DNA of 57,394 bases, taken from positions 1 to 57,394 of the IMG/VR virus record IMGVR_UViG_3300017909_002551, one strand, 5' to 3'. This DNA comes from a virus. The position numbers were made by a program, and so were the translations under genes. Numbering within the stretch: position 1 is the stretch's first letter; each line of letters begins with the position of its first letter. Below the pieces are notes generated by a model that saw nothing but the letters and a program-made list of their open reading frames with translations, was not told where the DNA came from and made no database searches. Of this stretch, positions 44,087 through 52,474 are shown piece by piece.

Positions 44087-45959
44087 AGGGTTATCGGTCA
44101 TACCGATACACGCAGAAACGAAGCGTCCCGCTATCAAGTGGCGCGATTACCAAAGTCGGTTGCCGACCGAAGAAGAAGTTACCAACTGGTTCACAACGTG
44201 GCCCGAAGCGAACATCGCTGTCGTCACTGGAGAAGTATCAGGCGTCGTCATTGTTGACTGCGATAATGATGCTGCGTTCAATGCGGCGCTTAGCTGCGGA
44301 ATGCGCTCGCCCATCGTCGTATCGACCAAGAGAGGTTGCCACCTTTGGTTCAAGCATCCTCGCGATGGGAAGAGACGGGGCCCGAGAGCTGGGAATAATT
44401 CCACTGGTACGGACTGGCCAAGAACGTCGGGCTTGGACTTCCGAGGTGACGGTAGCTACGCGCTTCTACCGCCTAGTAAGGGCTATAGATGGAAAGTCCC
44501 AGGAGACCTAGACCGATACGATGACATGCCAGTTTGGAAAGACTGGTCGGGCGCAAGCCTGCTTCCTAAAACCATTTCTGAATTTGTCTTTGAAGACCTC
44601 AACCTGTCTGACATTCGCTTTGACCCATCCACTCTACTTACAGAATGGGAGCGCACTGAGGCTTTTATAAAGGCCAATGATTTTCCGCATGGTAAAATAC
44701 CTTCTGGTCAAGGTAACGCAAGGAATGACAGGGTCATGCGTTACGCCAGCGAAAGTGTGTTGACTGGCGCTTTCGGCCCCGACCTAAGGGTGCGGTGCCG
44801 CGCGTTTATGGACCACTTCTTTGTCGACCATCTCGCGGATAAAGAGTTTGAAGACACACTTGCCAGCGTGGAGCGTATGGAGAGGTCGAACCACCCAGAG
44901 CGCTTCGACCCCAACACTGGGGAGTACATATACAAGAGGCCAGACATTGAAGTCTTTGAGGGTGAACGGCGGGAGCGCAAGCTGATTACTGTCGGTGACA
45001 GTGATGACCTAATCGAGTCTGGTAAAAATCGGCAGTACTTCGTAGAGCCTTGGTTGCGACCTCAGACAATCATACAAATCCATGGGTACTCAGGCTCGGG
45101 CAAGACCATGTTCTTGCAACACGCCCTGTATTCCATGTGTGCTGGCCAGCGGAGCTTCGGCCCGTTTGAAATATATAAGCCCGCTAAGGTTTTGTATTTT
45201 GATTTTGAGCTATCACAAGGAGACCTCGGTCGTCGTCTGTCTGACCTTCGTAATATGTACGGCGACGCAGAAGACCGCTTCTCGGTATGGACACCGTGGT
45301 TAGAAGACAAGGAAATTAACATGCGCTCACCAGAGGGTCTGCGTGAGATGCAGGGCTGGGTAGAATACTTCCGGCCAGACGTGGTTGTTTTCGATACGAT
45401 ACGCACAGCCTGGTCTGGCATGTCGGAGAATAGCGCCGAAGAGTGGGCCGACATCAACCGTCTGGCGCTTCGTCTACGCAACGCTGGAATGTCTGTCATA
45501 ATGCTGCACCACTCAAACAAGCCAGGTGACGATGGTCTTGGGCGCGAGGCTGGGTCTACCAACCAGCTTACAGTTCTGGAAACCCAGATACGCATCGCCC
45601 AGATATACCGAGATGAAGAGACTGCGAAACAAAAGGCGGGCATGTGGGACGGTAACTATGACCGTTCACCAATGGACTTGCTACAACGCAAGCTGGACGA
45701 CGACTGGTATGTGTCCATGGCGATGGAAGTCAGGTACGGAAAGGTTCGCGAATGGACTGACGTCCATGACCCAATACAATTCATCGGCTGGGCTCAGCAC
45801 AAAGTAAGTGGCGAGAAGAAATTGGTCAGTAGCTTTAGTACAAAACGCCGAGCGAAAGAGCTCGCCCTCACTGGAAAGCAACCCATCGAGATAGCTCAGG
45901 AGCTTGTAAAGCCTCTCGATGTTGTTAACTCGTGGCTCGGGATAGGCGAAGATGTATGA
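44040..45959 (+). CDS. Bifunctional primase-polymerase (PrimPol) / RecA-fold helicase (639 aa)
   Basis: The N-terminus LSVIPIHAETKRPAIKWRDYQ...IAVVTGEVSGVVIVDCDND is PrimPol-like. The C-terminal half has Walker A GYSGSGKT and Walker B VVVFDTIR, of the RepA/DnaB-like (AAA_25) type. Confidence 0.8.
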   Translation: MNSDTTLNAALEYLDEGLSVIPIHAETKRPAIKWRDYQSRLPTEEEVTNWFTTWPEANIAVVTGEVSGVVIVDCDNDAAFNAALSCGMRSPIVVSTKRGCHLWFKHPRDGKRRGPRAGNNSTGTDWPRTSGLDFRGDGSYALLPPSKGYRWKVPGDLDRYDDMPVWKDWSGASLLPKTISEFVFEDLNLSDIRFDPSTLLTEWERTEAFIKANDFPHGKIPSGQGNARNDRVMRYASESVLTGAFGPDLRVRCRAFMDHFFVDHLADKEFEDTLASVERMERSNHPERFDPNTGEYIYKRPDIEVFEGERRERKLITVGDSDDLIESGKNRQYFVEPWLRPQTIIQIHGYSGSGKTMFLQHALYSMCAGQRSFGPFEIYKPAKVLYFDFELSQGDLGRRLSDLRNMYGDAEDRFSVWTPWLEDKEINMRSPEGLREMQGWVEYFRPDVVVFDTIRTAWSGMSENSAEEWADINRLALRLRNAGMSVIMLHHSNKPGDDGLGREAGSTNQLTVLETQIRIAQIYRDEETAKQKAGMWDGNYDRSPMDLLQRKLDDDWYVSMAMEVRYGKVREWTDVHDPIQFIGWAQHKVSGEKKLVSSFSTKRRAKELALTGKQPIEIAQELVKPLDVVNSWLGIGEDV

Positions 45960-46470
45960 GATAATAGACAACGCTTACTCTGCTCGTGACAGAGATGACA
46001 TGTTTGAGTTTGTGCGTAATAGCAAATACAGAATTGGGTGGGCTGACAGAAATTTTAATGACGTAAACGGGCAGCGTCGAATTATGTATAGCCCCTTTAC
46101 GTTAGACGAAGTTGAAGACATGGGGGTTTTGCGCTTGCACAACAGCCCACGTATTGACGAGCTCGTTCGGGGGAGAACCCCAACTCAGAACATCATCAAT
46201 CTGGCCGAACCCTCAAACGTCTTTTGCCCCCATACTCACGGAGACCTAGACACTCTGTTGTATTATTGCAACACGCGATGGGCACCTGAGTGGGCTGGAG
46301 AAACAATCATATATTCTGAGCATGATTACGAAGCTGAACATGCTGTGTCCTTCAAGCCTGGTCGAGTGCTGTGGCTAAACGCAGGCGTCATGCACAGTGT
46401 GCGTCCCCCAAGTCAGGCGGCTCCTGATTACAGGTTTACGTTTGCTGCGTTCTTTTCGACGCAGGACTAG
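45952..46470 (+). CDS. 2OG-Fe(II) oxygenase-like protein (172 aa)
   Basis: CPHTHGDLDTLLYYCN (HxD), GETIIY, GRVLWLNAGVMHSVRPP (distal His) and RFTFAAFF (Arg). Confidence 0.55.
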   Translation: MYEIIDNAYSARDRDDMFEFVRNSKYRIGWADRNFNDVNGQRRIMYSPFTLDEVEDMGVLRLHNSPRIDELVRGRTPTQNIINLAEPSNVFCPHTHGDLDTLLYYCNTRWAPEWAGETIIYSEHDYEAEHAVSFKPGRVLWLNAGVMHSVRPPSQAAPDYRFTFAAFFSTQD

Positions 46471-47667: not shown

Positions 47668-48023
47668 GTAGTCGAAAGGGCAACGATTACGAGACAGAGC
47701 TCTCTAAATTTCTCTCGGCAACCTTAGGTATAGACGTTAGCCGCACGCCGTTGAGCGGCGGCGGCTTCTCAGATGTTCAGATGGCCGACCTCATTGGCAC
47801 GCCGGACATCTGGGTAGAGGCCAAGAGGACGCAGAGGGCCGACGTCTACAGAGCTATGCAGCAGGCGGAGGAAGGCATCGCTGCCAGGAGCTGCCCAGAT
47901 GCAGCAGTCGTAATAACCAGAAAGAACAACGTCCCCACAAAAAACTCCCTTGTCGTCATGAGACTGGACGACTGGGTCGACCTCTACCGCGCATACTTAA
48001 CACTGACAGGAGTAATTAAATGA
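47664..48023 (+). CDS. Hjc-like PD-(D/E)XK nuclease / resolvase (119 aa)
   Basis: KGNDYETELSKFL...SRTPLSGGG...ADLIG...IWVEAKRT (D...ExK). ATGA coupling to the upstream gene. Confidence 0.5.
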   Translation: MSSRKGNDYETELSKFLSATLGIDVSRTPLSGGGFSDVQMADLIGTPDIWVEAKRTQRADVYRAMQQAEEGIAARSCPDAAVVITRKNNVPTKNSLVVMRLDDWVDLYRAYLTLTGVIK

Positions 48024-48274
48024 AAATCAATAATAGTTTTGAGACGCTCGAGGACATGCTGTCCGAGCTAAACAACGTCTCAGAGTCTGGCGGCATCGTC
48101 GAGAACGTCGTCCTCCTGGCTCGTGTCATTGATGACAACATGGAAGAGGAAGAGCGCCTGTTCCTTGGTTGGTCTCCAGATATTTTTGATGACCCGACCC
48201 GTGTCCTTGGCCACATCGAGCTCGTCAAGGCTCGCCTGTTCGACCTGATGTCTATTCGCCGCGAAGCCAACTAA
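48020..48274 (+). CDS. Hypothetical acidic protein (84 aa)
   Basis: ORF track. ATGA overlap with the upstream gene. Confidence 0.5.
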   Translation: MKINNSFETLEDMLSELNNVSESGGIVENVVLLARVIDDNMEEEERLFLGWSPDIFDDPTRVLGHIELVKARLFDLMSIRREAN

Positions 48275-48287
48275 GAAAGTCTATTCG

Positions 48288-48836
48288 TTGTCAGACGTGC
48301 GTTACTGTAAAGGTTGTCAGACGGAGCGGCCTCTGAGCGAGTTCAGAAAGCGCGGCGCGTCTGCGGGCAAAAGAGAAGGCCAACCCTACGGCAAGTGTTT
48401 CGACTGCACGCGCGTACAGGCTTACTCCGACAGGTTCAACACCGAAGACCCTGGGCCCTACCTGGTTCAGCTCACTGGCGTCCGTAGACGTAATCAAAAG
48501 CACATGTTTACGATTGACTCGGCCTACGTTGTGAACCTCTGGTTCAAACAAAAAGGTCTGTGTGCTCTCAGCGGACGAAAGATGACACACATCAGAGGTA
48601 ACGGTCGTGTAAAAACCAACGCGTCTCTCGACCGCATAGACAGCAAAAGACCCTATGAGCCTGGTAATGTGCAACTCGTCTGCGCAGTCACCAACTTTAT
48701 GAAACACGATATGACCGTCAAGGAAATGAAGGACTGGTGTGCCGCAGTACTGGCCTATCAGGACGACCAAAAGCGCTTCAGCATCTACTCTGTCTTTAAC
48801 AGATGGAGACAGAGATGGCAGCGAAAAGACGCGTAA
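48288..48836 (+). CDS. HNH-family (His-Me finger-like) endonuclease with N-terminal zinc ribbon (182 aa)
   Basis: YCKGCQ...GKCFDCTR, then ASLDRIDSKRPYEPGNVQLVCAVTNFMKHD. The usual first His is replaced by Arg. The start codon is non-ATG and uncertain. Confidence 0.45.
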   Translation: MSDVRYCKGCQTERPLSEFRKRGASAGKREGQPYGKCFDCTRVQAYSDRFNTEDPGPYLVQLTGVRRRNQKHMFTIDSAYVVNLWFKQKGLCALSGRKMTHIRGNGRVKTNASLDRIDSKRPYEPGNVQLVCAVTNFMKHDMTVKEMKDWCAAVLAYQDDQKRFSIYSVFNRWRQRWQRKDA

Positions 48837-49072
48837 CCAAGGTATGTAAAAACAGAGCCCTCAATAAACCCTTCCGCACACCAAAAGGACCCAAGAAGTC
48901 TGCGGTCTGCGTGAAAGACGGTAACTCTGTAAAGGTCGTTCGTTTTGGCGACAAGAACATGACAATCAAGAAGAACATCCCCGCAAGACGTAAGTCTTTT
49001 CGCGCGCGCCATAACTGCGCCAACCCTGGCCCTAAAACTAAAGCGAGGTATTGGTCATGCAAGGCTTGGTAA
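48815..49072 (+). CDS. Small basic conserved protein (85 aa)
   Basis: MAAKRRVTKV...KPFRTPKGPKKSAVCVKDGNSVKVVRFGDKNMTIKKNIPARRKSFRARHNCANPGPKTKARYWSCKAW. GGAGA RBS. Confidence 0.55.
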   Translation: MAAKRRVTKVCKNRALNKPFRTPKGPKKSAVCVKDGNSVKVVRFGDKNMTIKKNIPARRKSFRARHNCANPGPKTKARYWSCKAW

Positions 49073-49243
49073 TTTGTTTCGCTTGCTCGGAGAAACCCTG
49101 CAATAGGGAGACTTGTCCGTGCAAGTGCCACAAGGAGAAGGGCGATGACCCCAAGAATTAAGTCCGTGCGCCCGCTTGGGCGGCGCACTCGTACAGGGAA
49201 CATGAAACACAAGCCGTGTCCATGCACTGCAAAGCGAGGAAGC

Positions 49244-49417
49244 AATGGCCGCAAGTCGTAAGAAAAAATCTAAGTCCAAGAAGGACGCCTGTTACCACAA
49301 GGTCAAGTCAAGATATCGAGCATTCCCGAGCGCTTACGCGAGCGGCGCCTTGGTTAAGTGTAGACGTGTTGGAGCAAAAAATTGGGGCAACTCATCCAAG
49401 AAACGAAAGAAAGCCTA
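49244..49417 (+). CDS. Small basic conserved protein (57 aa), not in the ORF track
   Basis: Hand translation: MAASRKKKSKSKKDACYHKVKSRYRAFPSAYASGALVKCRRVGAKNWGNSSKKRKKA. GAGGAA RBS. Confidence 0.5.
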
Positions 49418-50137
49418 GACAAGGCCCTCGAGCTGGCTAACGAGCAGTTACCCAGCATACTCATGTCTGTTGGTCTTCTCTGCTCGGCGGTGGTCTTGTA
49501 TGAGCTATTCATCAAGCAGAACTGGGCTTTGTTGCTGTGGTACTTCTTTGGAACCATTCTAATGATGGTGTTGGCTTCGGCCTTCTACCATAGATACGTC
49601 TGCCACAAGACGTGGGAATGCCCCGAGTGGTTGCGCGTACCATTCATCCTAGTCTCTGGTGGTCTCGGGCTGGCCCCCGTTATTCAGTGGTGCGCCATAC
49701 ATCGTCAGCACCACGCCAACCCAGACGTTGCGGGCGACGCTCACGGCCCACAGTTCTCCATCTGGCACAACCTATCAGTCAGCTTCATACCTCCCAAGCT
49801 CATGTATGTAAGGGATTTGCTCAAGGACAGGCTGTATCAAGCCCAGTACAAATACTATTTACCTTTGTCTTTTGCGACGGCGGCAGCCTTTACGGCTGCC
49901 TTCGGTTTCGCTGAGTGGTGCTTCGTCTACGTCACCATGGTCGCCCACCAGGTAGCCAGCGTCTACACCGGACACCTGAAGTGGTTTCCAAAAAACCACC
50001 TCATCGCTGCAATATATTCTCCTGAAGTCTACCACTCGGAGCACCACCGGAACGCGCAGAACGCACGCCTTGGTCTCGTTGACATCCCGTTCTTTCTTCT
50101 CATCCAGTGGTTCCCGCACAAGGGGGGACGTGCCTGA
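49382..50137 (+). CDS. Membrane fatty-acid desaturase (Delta9 / DesC-like), compact 251 aa
   Basis: Three His boxes: HRYVCH, HRQHHANPD and HSEHHRN. Hydrophobic helices lie before box 1 and between boxes 2 and 3. TTG start with GGAG RBS (alternative ATG at 49463). Confidence 0.75.
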   Translation: MGQLIQETKESLDKALELANEQLPSILMSVGLLCSAVVLYELFIKQNWALLLWYFFGTILMMVLASAFYHRYVCHKTWECPEWLRVPFILVSGGLGLAPVIQWCAIHRQHHANPDVAGDAHGPQFSIWHNLSVSFIPPKLMYVRDLLKDRLYQAQYKYYLPLSFATAAAFTAAFGFAEWCFVYVTMVAHQVASVYTGHLKWFPKNHLIAAIYSPEVYHSEHHRNAQNARLGLVDIPFFLLIQWFPHKGGRA

Positions 50138-50580
50138 TGGACCCGCTTACCACAGCAGTCGGTGCCTTCGCCGCCATCAAGGCGGGTGTCAAGGCTGGCC
50201 GTGACATACAGGACTTGGCTGGTGAAGTCGGCAAGTTGTGGAGCGGCATCGACGAAGTAAAAAACAATTACCAAAAGGCCAAGAACAGCCCCTTCAGAAC
50301 AGTGGAAGAGGAGGCCATGGACGAATTTGTGGCGAAAAAACGTGCGGAAGACCTAGAGCACAACCTCCGTGAAATTGTTATCGCAACACGTGGGCACTCT
50401 GGCTGGCAGGAACTCATACGTTTGCGCGCCGACATCATGAAGAGGCGGAAGCAGGCAAAGATAGACGCCGCAAAAAAGAGAGACGAACTAATCGAGGCCG
50501 CTCTGTGGACGCTACTTGTAGTCGTGTTGCTGGCAGCTTTCGGGTTGTTTGGAGCGATAGCTTGGAAGGAAATGAAGTGA
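50137..50580 (+). CDS. Hypothetical protein with C-terminal TM anchor (147 aa)
   Basis: The ATG overlaps the desaturase TGA. C-terminus ALWTLLVVVLLAAFGLFGAIAW. Confidence 0.5.
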   Translation: MDPLTTAVGAFAAIKAGVKAGRDIQDLAGEVGKLWSGIDEVKNNYQKAKNSPFRTVEEEAMDEFVAKKRAEDLEHNLREIVIATRGHSGWQELIRLRADIMKRRKQAKIDAAKKRDELIEAALWTLLVVVLLAAFGLFGAIAWKEMK

Positions 50581-50804
50581 TGTCGGGACGACGAAAGACC
50601 AAGAAATCAAATAGTTTGAGAAAGTGGTTCGCACAAAACAACGGCAAAGGCTGGATAGACTGCAAAACTGGCAAGCCGTGCGGACGCAAAAAGGGTGAGA
50701 AACGTAAGGGTTATCCAGCATGTCGCCCAACAAAAGCACAGTGCACTTCTGCGGCGAGGAAGAAGACGGGGCCGAAGAGGATAAGCTGGAAGAGTGGAAG
50801 GTAG
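50580..50804 (+). CDS. Small basic Cys-containing protein (74 aa)
   Basis: MSGRRKTKKSNSLRKWFAQNNGKGWIDCKTGKPCGRKKGEKRKGYPACRPTKAQC... The ATG overlaps the upstream TGA. Confidence 0.5.
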   Translation: MSGRRKTKKSNSLRKWFAQNNGKGWIDCKTGKPCGRKKGEKRKGYPACRPTKAQCTSAARKKTGPKRISWKSGR

Positions 50805-50808
50805 AATC

Positions 50809-51195
50809 ATGTGGGGAACTATCGCGTCTAGCGTTTCATCCATTGCCTCTCAAGTACTCAAGAACCGCCAAATCAAGGCAGAAGCTAAGGCGAGAGTACA
50901 AGTGGCTAAAGTCGAGGCCGAAATTGCGCAAATCGAAAATGCGGCGAAGAATGTTGCCGACTACGATTTACAGGCGCTCAAGGAGACGCGCTATTCGTGG
51001 AAAGACGAGGTAGCCCTATGTGTCGTGCTCGCACCCTTCATAGGCAGTTTCCTGCCTTGGACGCAAGAATACGTCGCAATCGGGTGGCAACATCTGACAA
51101 CACACGCGCCTGATTGGTACGGTTGGATTTTTTGCGGGGCCGTGGCTGGAAGTATGGGAATCCGCTGGGCAGTGACTGGCTTCAAAAAAAAATGA
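50809..51195 (+). CDS. Holin-like membrane protein (128 aa)
   Basis: Amphipathic N-terminus followed by hydrophobic segments VALCVVLAPFIGSFLPW and WYGWIFCGAVAGSMGIRW. Lies upstream of the endolysin. It resembles the 3-TM GTA-type holin family as I recall it. Confidence 0.45.
   Translation: MWGTIASSVSSIASQVLKNRQIKAEAKARVQVAKVEAEIAQIENAAKNVADYDLQALKETRYSWKDEVALCVVLAPFIGSFLPWTQEYVAIGWQHLTTHAPDWYGWIFCGAVAGSMGIRWAVTGFKKK
51184..51192. repeat. A9 homopolymer at the holin-like / ArfA-like junction
   Basis: TTCAAAAAAAAATGACC encodes KKK-stop and contains the A of the next ATG. Confidence 0.9.
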
Positions 51196-51320
51196 CCAAG
51201 AGGCGGGAGCCAAACCCATACGCAAGGATGCTGGTCTCCCCCCTGTTCAGGATGGTGAAACGCCCGAGCGCCAAGACGTACAAGCGCAAGCCAAAACATC
51301 AGAAAGCAAACGACCAATGA
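51192..51320 (+). CDS. arfA: ArfA-like (alternative ribosome-rescue factor A-like) mini-protein (42 aa)
   Basis: MTKRREPNPYARMLVSPLFRMVKRPSAKTYKRKPKHQKANDQ, compared with E. coli ArfA as I recall it (...[28 protein letters not shown]...). ATGA coupling at both ends. Confidence 0.5.
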   Translation: MTKRREPNPYARMLVSPLFRMVKRPSAKTYKRKPKHQKANDQ

Positions 51321-51700
51321 CACTAGACGACCTCAAGTATTTCACACGTGACGAGTTACGTTGCTCGCATACAGGAGACGAAGGCATGGACGTTCAGTTC
51401 ATGCAGTTCATCGAGGAGCTTCGGGAGGAGCTGGGCTTCCCATTCCGAGTTACGTCTGCATACCGTAGTCCCGAGCACCCAATCGAAAAAAAGAAGTCTC
51501 GTCCAGGCACGCACACCACTGGCCATGCCATAGACATCAACGTCTACGGCGACCAGGCAGTCGCCCTGGTTCGACTCGCCCTGGCAAAAGGCATCCAGCG
51601 TGTAGGTGTTGCACAAAAGGGGCCAACGTCCTCACGCTTCATCCACCTGGATGACGCACAGGAAGACCACTTCCCCAAACCATTTATCTGGAGTTACTAG
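51317..51700 (+). CDS. Endolysin, zinc peptidase M15 (VanY / D-Ala-D-Ala carboxypeptidase-like)
   Basis: FRVTSAYRSPEHP...GTHTTGHAIDINV...RFIHLDD (His/Asp/His metal ligands). Confidence 0.8.
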   Translation: MTLDDLKYFTRDELRCSHTGDEGMDVQFMQFIEELREELGFPFRVTSAYRSPEHPIEKKKSRPGTHTTGHAIDINVYGDQAVALVRLALAKGIQRVGVAQKGPTSSRFIHLDDAQEDHFPKPFIWSY

Positions 51701-52474
51701 GTGGCACACAATGGCAAGGCAGGTGGTCAGCAAATACAGCCCAAAGACGAAGGTGAAAAGAAGAAGGAAGAAGCGTGGACTTCACTTGCGGAAGAAGCAC
51801 GGACCTCGGCATCACCTGAGGGTGAACCGTCAATCCTCTCGATTCCGTGCCTGACCCCAGAGCAGGCGCAGGCCGAGGCTGACACAGTCAAAGCCCTTAA
51901 AAATATTTGGATACCCCGTGGTGAAGGCACCTTCTATACGATAGGTGCTTCAACCTACAATGACCTCATAATTTCTGAGGGTCATGCCACGTACTACCAA
52001 GTCGCCGAAAAGGTAAACCCCATAATAGAAGACGCATTCGGCCCCTTGATGGGCCTCATGCGAGCAGTGATAGGCAAGGTCTACCAACGTGAATGTATAG
52101 ACCTGCCGTTCGCTGGCCTCATGGGCTTCCACATCTTCAATAGTTCTGGTGACGAGAGGAGAGAAGAGGGCTCTAACATCCATACAGACGAACCATTCCA
52201 GCGCCTGTTGTGGACGGAGCCCTTCCATGACCCGTTCAGTTTTACGTTGCCACTCGAGTTACCTGACGGGGACGGGGGACTAGATTATTGGGTGAAGGGT
52301 GAGCCGTATAGACGTTACCTTCCATACGAGATAGGCCACTTGTATCTCCACTCTGGCCGCTTCCCGCACAGGATAGCCGCGCCCACGTGGCCATCGGACG
52401 AAAAGCCCCGCATCACTTTGCAGGGACACGGGGCAATTCTCCAAGACACTAATCGTGTGGCAGTCTATTTCTGA
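51701..52474 (+). CDS. 2OG-Fe(II) oxygenase-like protein (257 aa; GTG start uncertain)
   Basis: SNIHTDEPF (HxD), GGLDYW, LHSGRFPHRI (distal His) and RITLQGHG (Arg). Confidence 0.5.
   Translation: MAHNGKAGGQQIQPKDEGEKKKEEAWTSLAEEARTSASPEGEPSILSIPCLTPEQAQAEADTVKALKNIWIPRGEGTFYTIGASTYNDLIISEGHATYYQVAEKVNPIIEDAFGPLMGLMRAVIGKVYQRECIDLPFAGLMGFHIFNSSGDERREEGSNIHTDEPFQRLLWTEPFHDPFSFTLPLELPDGDGGLDYWVKGEPYRRYLPYEIGHLYLHSGRFPHRIAAPTWPSDEKPRITLQGHGAILQDTNRVAVYF

What the first reader, a model, noticed from the sequence alone, without database searches (positions are those of the whole stretch)
51192..51320. ArfA-like ribosome-rescue mini-protein wedged between the holin-like gene and the endolysin
The 42-aa product is MTKRREPNPYARMLVSPLFRMVKRPSAKTYKRKPKHQKANDQ. 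It shares the core of bacterial ArfA as I recall it: ...[27 protein letters not shown]. The shared elements are PLFR, then a basic stretch, then (S/T)Y-x-RK-x-KH.

ArfA recruits RF2 to ribosomes stalled on non-stop mRNAs. A phage copy could keep translation running when host mRNA is degraded, or when tmRNA is overwhelmed late in infection.

It is translationally coupled (ATGA) on both sides. Only a longer, out-of-context version appears in the ORF track.
Basis: partly seen in the sequence, partly recalled or inferred. Interest (0 to 1): 0.6.

Follow-up and report, generated by a model that had tools for sequence, protein, structure and literature searches.

The report
Divergent ArfA-like phage mini-gene
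A marine phage carries a real 42-codon gene, a distant member of a common phage family related to the bacterial ribosome-rescue peptide ArfA, inserted between its two lysis genes; such genes are already known in phages, and whether this worn copy frees stalled ribosomes is untested.

Summary
The ORF (51192-51320) is real, with ATGA overlaps on both sides. It misses Pfam ArfA and NCBIfam. A profile of independently collected ArfA-like proteins finds it (16.1 bits; 0/5000 shuffles; best of 1348 window segments). It belongs to the branch lacking the KGKGS loop (DUF7230-type, 22.6 bits), at that branch's low end. Kept: N14, P23-L24-F25-R26, Y39, R41-K42, K44-H45. Lost or altered: G35-K36-G37, the N-terminal minidomain, the RF2-binding strand, and arfA's non-stop control. 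The phage is CRP-810-type. The holin/endolysin junction is a variable slot: empty in four relatives, filled by an unrelated basic peptide in one, identical in a 94% relative (two changes, both silent). Neither the ORF nor the endolysin has a Shine-Dalgarno, so any insert there must keep the coupling; the position says little about function. Phage ArfA annotations are published (RXM g10, HTVC027P gp30), and this scan noted ArfA-like/DUF7230 phage peptides on other DNA many times. Odds: homology about 0.9, ribosome-channel binding about 0.55, true RF2-dependent rescue about 0.3. New member of a known kind; interest low.

The parts
51192..51320 (+). 42-aa basic ORF (13 K/R, 2 D/E, no Cys, no hydrophobic segment); DUF7230-type, loop-minus relative of ArfA
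   Evidence: two silent changes only in L020
50809..51195 (+). Upstream holin-like membrane protein gene (128 aa, phrog_2524; relatives annotated DUF3154 or holin); has an SD; ends in three Lys codons
51317..51700 (+). Downstream Peptidase M15 endolysin (127 aa); no SD, start overlaps the stop of the mini-gene
   Evidence: PF08291 E 9.7e-14, phrog_894 endolysin E 1.6e-28, SD test
51192..51195 (+). ATGA overlap holin-like stop / mini-gene start
51317..51320 (+). ATGA overlap mini-gene stop / endolysin start; with the first overlap it forms a 6-bp AATGAC repeat (51191-51196, 51316-51321) around the insert
51184..51192 (+). A9 run (only run of 9 or more A or T in the genome) encoding the holin-like C-terminal lysines; a one-base slip would fuse holin-like and mini-gene frames
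   Evidence: slippage itself not tested

Best explanation
It is a dispensable, horizontally acquired mini-gene of the large ArfA/DUF7230 family of phage peptides, inserted into the lysis cassette of a CRP-810-type temperate marine phage. SHOWN: open frame, remote homology, loop-minus subtype, variable slot, no SD, own stop codon, no terminator. INFERRED: ribosomes finishing the holin-like gene restart at the ATGA overlap, make the peptide and restart again on the endolysin, so the peptide is made whenever the lysis cassette is, with no non-stop control. INFERRED from ArfA structures: the basic tail (Y30, R32-K33, K35-H36, equal to E. coli Y39, R41-K42, K44-H45) enters the empty mRNA channel of a 30S subunit stalled on truncated mRNA. 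P17-L18-F19 (P23-L24-F25) sits at the decoding centre and offers the hydrophobic patch that docks host RF2, which would release the stalled chain and return ribosomes to phage late translation. Odds by step: translated 0.9; homologous 0.9; binds the mRNA channel 0.55; activates RF2 and rescues 0.3.
For: Profile match above shuffles and above composition-matched basic ORFs. Loop-minus profile 22.6 bits, equal to E. coli ArfA's 22.8 on the same profile. ESM Atlas best cluster is DUF7230 (0.92, 205 shared features, recognition score low) and an ArfA cluster scores 0.90. PHROG 20887 E 0.14. Residues that structures place at the decoding centre, at RF2 W319 and in the KH pocket are kept (L19 as Met, P23, L24, F25, K44-H45; PMC5378476, PMC8012679). 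The family has at least 7408 clusters and occurs in phages of Alphaproteobacteria, the likely host class. The 94%-identical relative has two changes in the ORF, both silent, against 21 replacement codons in the holin-like gene. GC3 is 0.76 against 0.54-0.61 in neighbours, consistent with acquisition.
Against: No hit to curated PF03889, PF23876 or NCBIfam, and no relative by single-sequence search in 5.8 billion or 1.84 billion proteins. KGKGS loop absent. The strand equivalent to E. coli 28-30 reads V-K-R, where 52 representatives have [RQK]-[VI]-[VIE] (frequency of the query residue 0, 0.04, 0). The score is at the bottom of the branch's leave-one-out range (21-60 bits). The N-terminal minidomain is missing and Ala18 is Arg (family Lys). 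No loop-minus member has been assayed in any paper found. The gene is absent from four close relatives and from complete relatives G021, G047 and G049, and an unrelated basic peptide fills the same slot in L004.
Confidence: 0.45

Rival explanations
1. Passenger or decaying copy: an ArfA-family mini-gene landed in a coupled junction and is kept mainly because an open frame with ATGA at both ends is needed to pass ribosomes on to the SD-less endolysin. The peptide acts at most as one more basic nucleic-acid-binding peptide, like the five others in this island.
For: No SD at 51192 or 51317. The slot is empty or holds an unrelated 37-aa basic ORF, also ATGA-coupled at both ends. Atypical residues in the RF2 strand. 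No close homologue beyond one near-identical phage. Five other K/R-rich short ORFs lie in the same island.
Against: The residues kept are the functionally relevant ones (N, P-L-F-R, Y, R-K, K-H). Both changes in L020 are silent (only two events, weak). The other basic ORFs score below 5 bits on the profile, so this one is not generic.
Confidence: 0.3
2. Ribosome binder without release: the peptide plugs the empty mRNA channel but cannot open RF2 (like ArfA A18T). It would park stalled ribosomes or compete with tmRNA-SmpB, shielding truncated phage products from tagging or damping host translation before lysis.
For: The channel-binding tail and P-L-F are kept while the RF2-activating N-terminal minidomain is absent. 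ArfA A18T binds and recruits RF2 without activating it (PMC8012679). The gene is expressed with the lysis genes and lacks non-stop control.
Against: Almost all phage and SAR11-type family members lack that minidomain too, so its absence is a family trait. BrfA and ArfT rescue with different N-termini. No direct evidence of inhibition.
Confidence: 0.15
3. Lysis accessory: the peptide modulates the holin-like protein, either free or as a basic C-terminal extension made by a one-base slip on the A9 run.
For: Position between the lysis genes. The A9 run is unique in the genome. Both insert-bearing junction types (window/L020 and L004) have an uninterrupted A9, and a -1 shift would fuse the frames.
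Against: No transmembrane segment, signal or lipobox Cys, so it is not spanin-like (max 15-residue hydropathy 0.45). Relatives have the same lysis pair without it. Family members elsewhere lie next to terminase, primase or rIIA genes, not lysis genes. The A-run is explained by Lys codons plus the ATGA overlap.
Confidence: 0.08

Closest known systems
DUF7230 (Pfam PF23876) / loop-minus ArfA-like phage peptides, e.g. Acinetobacter phage Acj61 gp3, Pseudoalteromonas phage J2-1 ATN93434 (annotated ArfA), Sinorhizobium phage phiM9 gp037
   Same: Length about 40 aa, N-P start of the core, P-x-F, exactly ten residues between Phe and Tyr, Y-x-R-K and basic tail; aligns without gaps; 22.6 bits on a 12-member profile
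   Different: Below the Pfam cut-off (no hmmscan hit); lacks the two aliphatic strand residues and the Lys before the K-K pair; sits in a lysis cassette. The family has no experimentally shown function.
E. coli ArfA (YhdL, PF03889; PDB 5MDV/5MGP series)
   Same: N14, L20, P23-L24-F25-R26, K34, Y39, R41-K42, K44-H45 kept; basic tail; 11/33 identities, pairwise E 8e-4
   Different: No G35-K36-G37, no N-terminal minidomain, Ala18 is Arg, strand 28-30 changed, own stop codon with no hairpin or hydrophobic tail, hence no trans-translation control
Published phage ArfA annotations: Citromicrobium phage RXM g10 (PMC8953757), pelagiphage HTVC027P gp30 (PMC12753301), Brevundimonas phage Bambus
   Same: Phage-borne, short, lacks the E. 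coli N-terminus, host in Alphaproteobacteria; gp30 is transcribed early and late in infection
   Different: Those keep the KG[KR]GS loop and hit PF03889 or are annotated as ArfA; none was assayed in the passages read
BrfA (Bacillus) and ArfT (Francisella)
   Same: Small rescue factors with a basic tail; BrfA shares the KH motif; ArfT is 40 aa
   Different: Described as separate families with distinct N-termini; similarity to them was not tested here

Membership tests
ArfA (PF03889) | Score at or above the curated Pfam cut-off (25.5 bits) | tested here: not met
   No hit at E up to 10; control E. coli ArfA 90.6 bits
ArfA (PF03889) | Detectable homology to ArfA-like proteins | tested here: met
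   16.1 bits, 0/5000 shuffles; hhalign 91.6%; against loop-plus members alone only 10.7 bits, 1/3000 shuffles
ArfA (PF03889) | KGKGS loop in the mRNA channel (PMC6299226) | tested here: not met
   Three-residue gap at G35-K36-G37
ArfA (PF03889) | Pro23 and hydrophobic patch Leu19/Leu24/Phe25 that contacts RF2 Trp319 (PMC5378476) | tested here: met
   P17, M13, L18, F19
ArfA (PF03889) | Beta-strand 25-30 added to the RF2 sheet | tested here: inconclusive
   Reads F-R-M-V-K-R; side chains atypical for the family, but the contact is by backbone and a one-residue shift would restore one Val
ArfA (PF03889) | N-terminal minidomain with Ile11/Ala18 that activates RF2 | tested here: not met
   Only 7 residues precede the Asn14 equivalent; position 18 is Arg (Lys in 40 of 52 family representatives)
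ArfA (PF03889) | Basic tail past residue 40 with the Lys-His motif | tested here: met
   R32-K33, K35-H36, K38
ArfA (PF03889) | Expression from a non-stop mRNA (internal terminator or RNase III hairpin) | tested here: not met
   No terminator-like site in or after the ORF; folding z = +0.54; own TGA overlaps the endolysin start
ArfA (PF03889) | RF2-dependent peptide release; complements ssrA/arfA lethality | not testable with these tools
   Needs experiment
DUF7230 (PF23876) | Score at or above the curated cut-off (27 bits) | tested here: not met
   No hit
DUF7230 (PF23876) | Loop-minus spacing and similarity to members | tested here: met
   22.6 bits on a loop-minus profile that includes PF23876-labelled proteins, 0/3000 shuffles; ESM Atlas top cluster DUF7230 0.92
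Spanin / antiholin | Lipobox Cys, signal or transmembrane segment | tested here: not met
   No Cys; max hydropathy 0.45; soluble antiholins are not excluded by this

The most novel reading that the evidence does not exclude
Loop-minus (DUF7230-type) phage peptides, this one included, are a minimal class of ribosome mRNA-channel factors. They either rescue non-stop ribosomes without ArfA's KGKGS loop and N-terminal switch, or plug the channel and compete with tmRNA. Here the factor is hard-wired into the lysis cassette so that it is made without non-stop control at the end of infection.
Probability: 0.3. Interest if true: 0.6.

Novelty: new member of a known kind. Interest (0 to 1): 0.27.

Why it matters
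Phage ArfA-like genes are common, usually unannotated, and no test of one was found in the papers searched. If a copy this stripped down rescues ribosomes, it defines the minimal residues needed for stop-codon-free release by RF2. It would also give marine Alphaproteobacteria phages a translation-quality-control tool and assign a function to DUF7230. As a single locus it adds little: the family is large, the idea is published as annotation, and this copy is a poorly conserved outlier, a weaker test case than a typical member. The slot also shows how mini-genes can enter a translationally coupled lysis cassette without breaking it.

Tried and rejected
Single-sequence searches found no relative: word-indexed search, phmmer over 1.84 billion representatives, PDB sequences, tblastn of phage records (chance hits only). 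Family searches of the own genome with PF23876, PF03889 and phrog_20887 were empty.

Relatives could not be drawn for a virus record.

Complex prediction of the peptide (alignment A3) with E. coli RF2 105-365 as a stand-in gave 'no answer' (score 0.00). It is not counted for or against. A Ruegeria RF2 reference was not held.

Rejected readings: the 68-aa TTG-started ORF (no SD, frame open by by-product), non-stop regulation, a nearby tRNA or tmRNA (none in the genome), and spanin. A prophage search in bacterial genomes gave one 8-kb contig in a MAG, which does not identify the host. No structure was predicted for the free peptide, since ArfA is ordered only on the ribosome.

Full report
Observation. 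The frame 51192-51320 on the plus strand encodes the 42 residues reported. It starts in an ATGA overlap with the stop of a 128-aa membrane protein gene (50809-51195) and ends in an ATGA overlap with a 127-aa gene (51317-51700). The downstream gene is a Peptidase M15 endolysin (PF08291 E 9.7e-14; phrog_894). The upstream gene is phrog_2524, with relatives annotated DUF3154 or holin, so 'holin-like' is fair. The 68-aa version from TTG 51114 has no SD pairing, and the same frame is open in a relative without the peptide.

The genome. The window is a complete 57,394-bp phage with direct terminal repeats. Its primase is 54% identical over 99% to Roseobacter phage CRP-810, and the gene order (cobS, cobT, LuxR, integrase, resolvase, primase) matches. 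CRP-810-type phages are temperate and infect marine Alphaproteobacteria: Roseobacter, SAR11 and Sphingomonadaceae (PMC11288001). The host of this member is not established. The ORF lies in the variable island between resolvase and integrase, which holds five other short K/R-rich ORFs that recur in close relatives.

Is it ArfA-like? Curated models miss it, as do single-sequence searches. Weak leads were phrog_20887 at E 0.14 and the ESM Atlas, whose best cluster is DUF7230 (0.92), with an ArfA cluster at 0.90. I collected ArfA-like proteins without using the query, starting from E. coli ArfA and pelagiphage HTVC027P gp30, and built profile A1. The peptide scores 16.1 bits (E 4e-7). None of 5000 shuffles reaches that, and it is the best of 1348 six-frame segments of the window by 10 bits; hhalign gives 91.6%. 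A composition-matched control of 199 short basic ORFs from related loci peaks at 4.4 bits. Homology is therefore well supported. A profile search returned at least 7408 protein clusters, so the family is large.

Which branch? Among 52 non-redundant representatives, 38 have the KGKGS loop and 12 lack three residues there; PF23876-labelled proteins fall among the latter. The peptide aligns to the loop-minus group without gaps and scores 22.6 bits (0/3000 shuffles), against 10.7 on the loop-plus profile. Loop-minus members score 21-60 bits in leave-one-out tests, so it is an outlier at the low end. The sample is small and biased to pelagiphage-type proteins.

Residue-level comparison with E. coli ArfA (roles from PMC5378476 and PMC8012679). 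Kept: Asn14; Pro23, which lies against the decoding nucleotides A1492/A1493; Leu24 and Phe25, with Leu19 as Met, the patch that contacts RF2 Trp319; Arg26, Lys34, Tyr39, Arg41, Lys42; and the Lys44-His45 pair shared with BrfA. Lost: Gly35-Lys36-Gly37 of the channel loop (PMC6299226, which also says no single tail residue is essential) and the N-terminal minidomain, with Ala18 replaced by Arg; most phage members share this second loss. Peculiar to this copy: positions 28-30 read Val-Lys-Arg where the family has a basic or Gln residue followed by two aliphatic ones. That strand binds RF2 through its backbone, so the change need not be fatal. The regulatory design of arfA is absent: there is a stop codon, no terminator and no stable fold (z +0.54).

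Conservation and context. Six distinct relatives carry the same holin-like plus M15 pair. In L001, L002 and L003 (86-88% holin identity) the two genes overlap directly by ATGA. In L021 they are 8 nt apart. In L004 the junction holds an unrelated 37-aa basic ORF, again ATGA-coupled at both ends, which belongs to other uncharacterised clusters. Only L020 (94% DNA identity; also L073, L074) has this ORF, with two changes, both silent. That fits purifying selection but is only two events. Complete relatives G021, G047 and G049 have no family member by profile search, and CRP-810 gave none either (no positive control in that call). Three more distant phages have a loop-minus member inside the primase region. 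Neither 51192 nor 51317 has an SD (-1.5 and -0.4 kcal/mol against -5.8 to -10.8 for neighbours). So the endolysin depends on coupling, and any insert here must be a double-overlapped open frame. This explains the neat wedging without a role in lysis. GC3 of 0.76 against 0.54-0.61 in neighbours suggests a foreign origin (42 codons only).

Mechanism. Most likely the peptide is made by re-initiation whenever the lysis cassette is translated. It would bind the empty mRNA channel of ribosomes stalled on truncated messages and help host RF2 release the chain, as ArfA does but without its feedback control. Homology and coupling rest on results here; binding (about 0.55) and release (about 0.3) are inferred. 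Rivals: a passenger kept as a coupling relay (0.3), a channel plug that cannot activate RF2 (0.15), or a lysis accessory, possibly through slippage on the A9 run (0.08).

Prior art and novelty. Phage ArfA is already annotated in GenBank (J2-1, RXM, Bambus). It is discussed for RXM g10 (PMC8953757) and HTVC027P gp30, which is transcribed early and late (PMC12753301). I found no paper naming DUF7230 and no assay of a phage copy. This scan has noted ArfA-like or DUF7230 peptides in at least ten other genomes, none described in a lysis cassette. I do not file it as ArfA, since several defining features were tested and not met. It is a divergent new member of the ArfA/DUF7230 phage peptide family. 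Interest 0.27.

Noticed in passing
window 48803-49072, 49145-49261, 49245-49418, 50580-50804, 51711-51854 (+): Five other short K/R-rich ORFs in the same island, each recurring in several close relatives (L076, L077, L079, L085); phrog_7595, phrog_727 domain and DUF5872-like hits. None is ArfA-like. Function unknown.
   Followed up: partly
L004:2887-3000 (+), also L022 and L076: An unrelated 37-aa Lys-rich ORF fills the same holin/endolysin slot with ATGA overlaps at both ends; ESM Atlas clusters of unnamed proteins at 0.95-0.96, no Pfam or PHROG hit.
   Followed up: partly
window 51184-51195; L001-L003 about 2890-2902; L021:2480-2503: The holin-like gene ends in A9 (window, L020, L004) or in the classic A-AAA-AAG slippery heptamer (L001-L003, L021). 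In every case the next gene is in the -1 frame, even in L021 where the genes are 8 nt apart with no stop in between. A -1 shift would fuse holin-like to endolysin or to the insert. It may be a by-product of Lys codons and ATGA overlaps.
   Followed up: partly
L069-L071 (reverse strand about 1501-1830 in L069/L070, plus strand in L071): A loop-minus ArfA-like segment starts a 108-109-aa frame that overlaps the primase/helicase gene in another frame in three 42-kb-class marine phages.
   Followed up: no
L056, L058, L059, L060, L062, L092, L093, L094, L096: ArfA-like ORFs are unannotated in many GenBank phage records (CRP-212, CRP-9, CRP-13, RsoM2USA, Cr30, pf16, Atu_ph07, LG08, phage 133); in Salmonella phage Arash (L067) one is annotated 'ribosomal protein L2'.
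   Followed up: partly
L054:3769-3945 (-), HTVC027P gp30 and P0004-P0123: Pelagiphage-type ArfA-like proteins carry an extra conserved N-terminal segment with a WDGRSRP motif in place of the E. coli minidomain.
   Followed up: no
window 48020-52474 versus L075: In CRP-810 itself the annotated holin and GH108 endolysin lie elsewhere in the genome (20338-21268), whereas this phage has its holin-like/M15 pair in the resolvase-integrase island.
   Followed up: no
window 49382-50137 (+), 45952-46470 (+), 51701-52474 (+): Desaturase-like membrane protein (NCBIfam DesA E 6e-6) and 2OG-Fe(II) oxygenase-like genes (for 45952; 51701 by motif only) near the finding.
   Followed up: no
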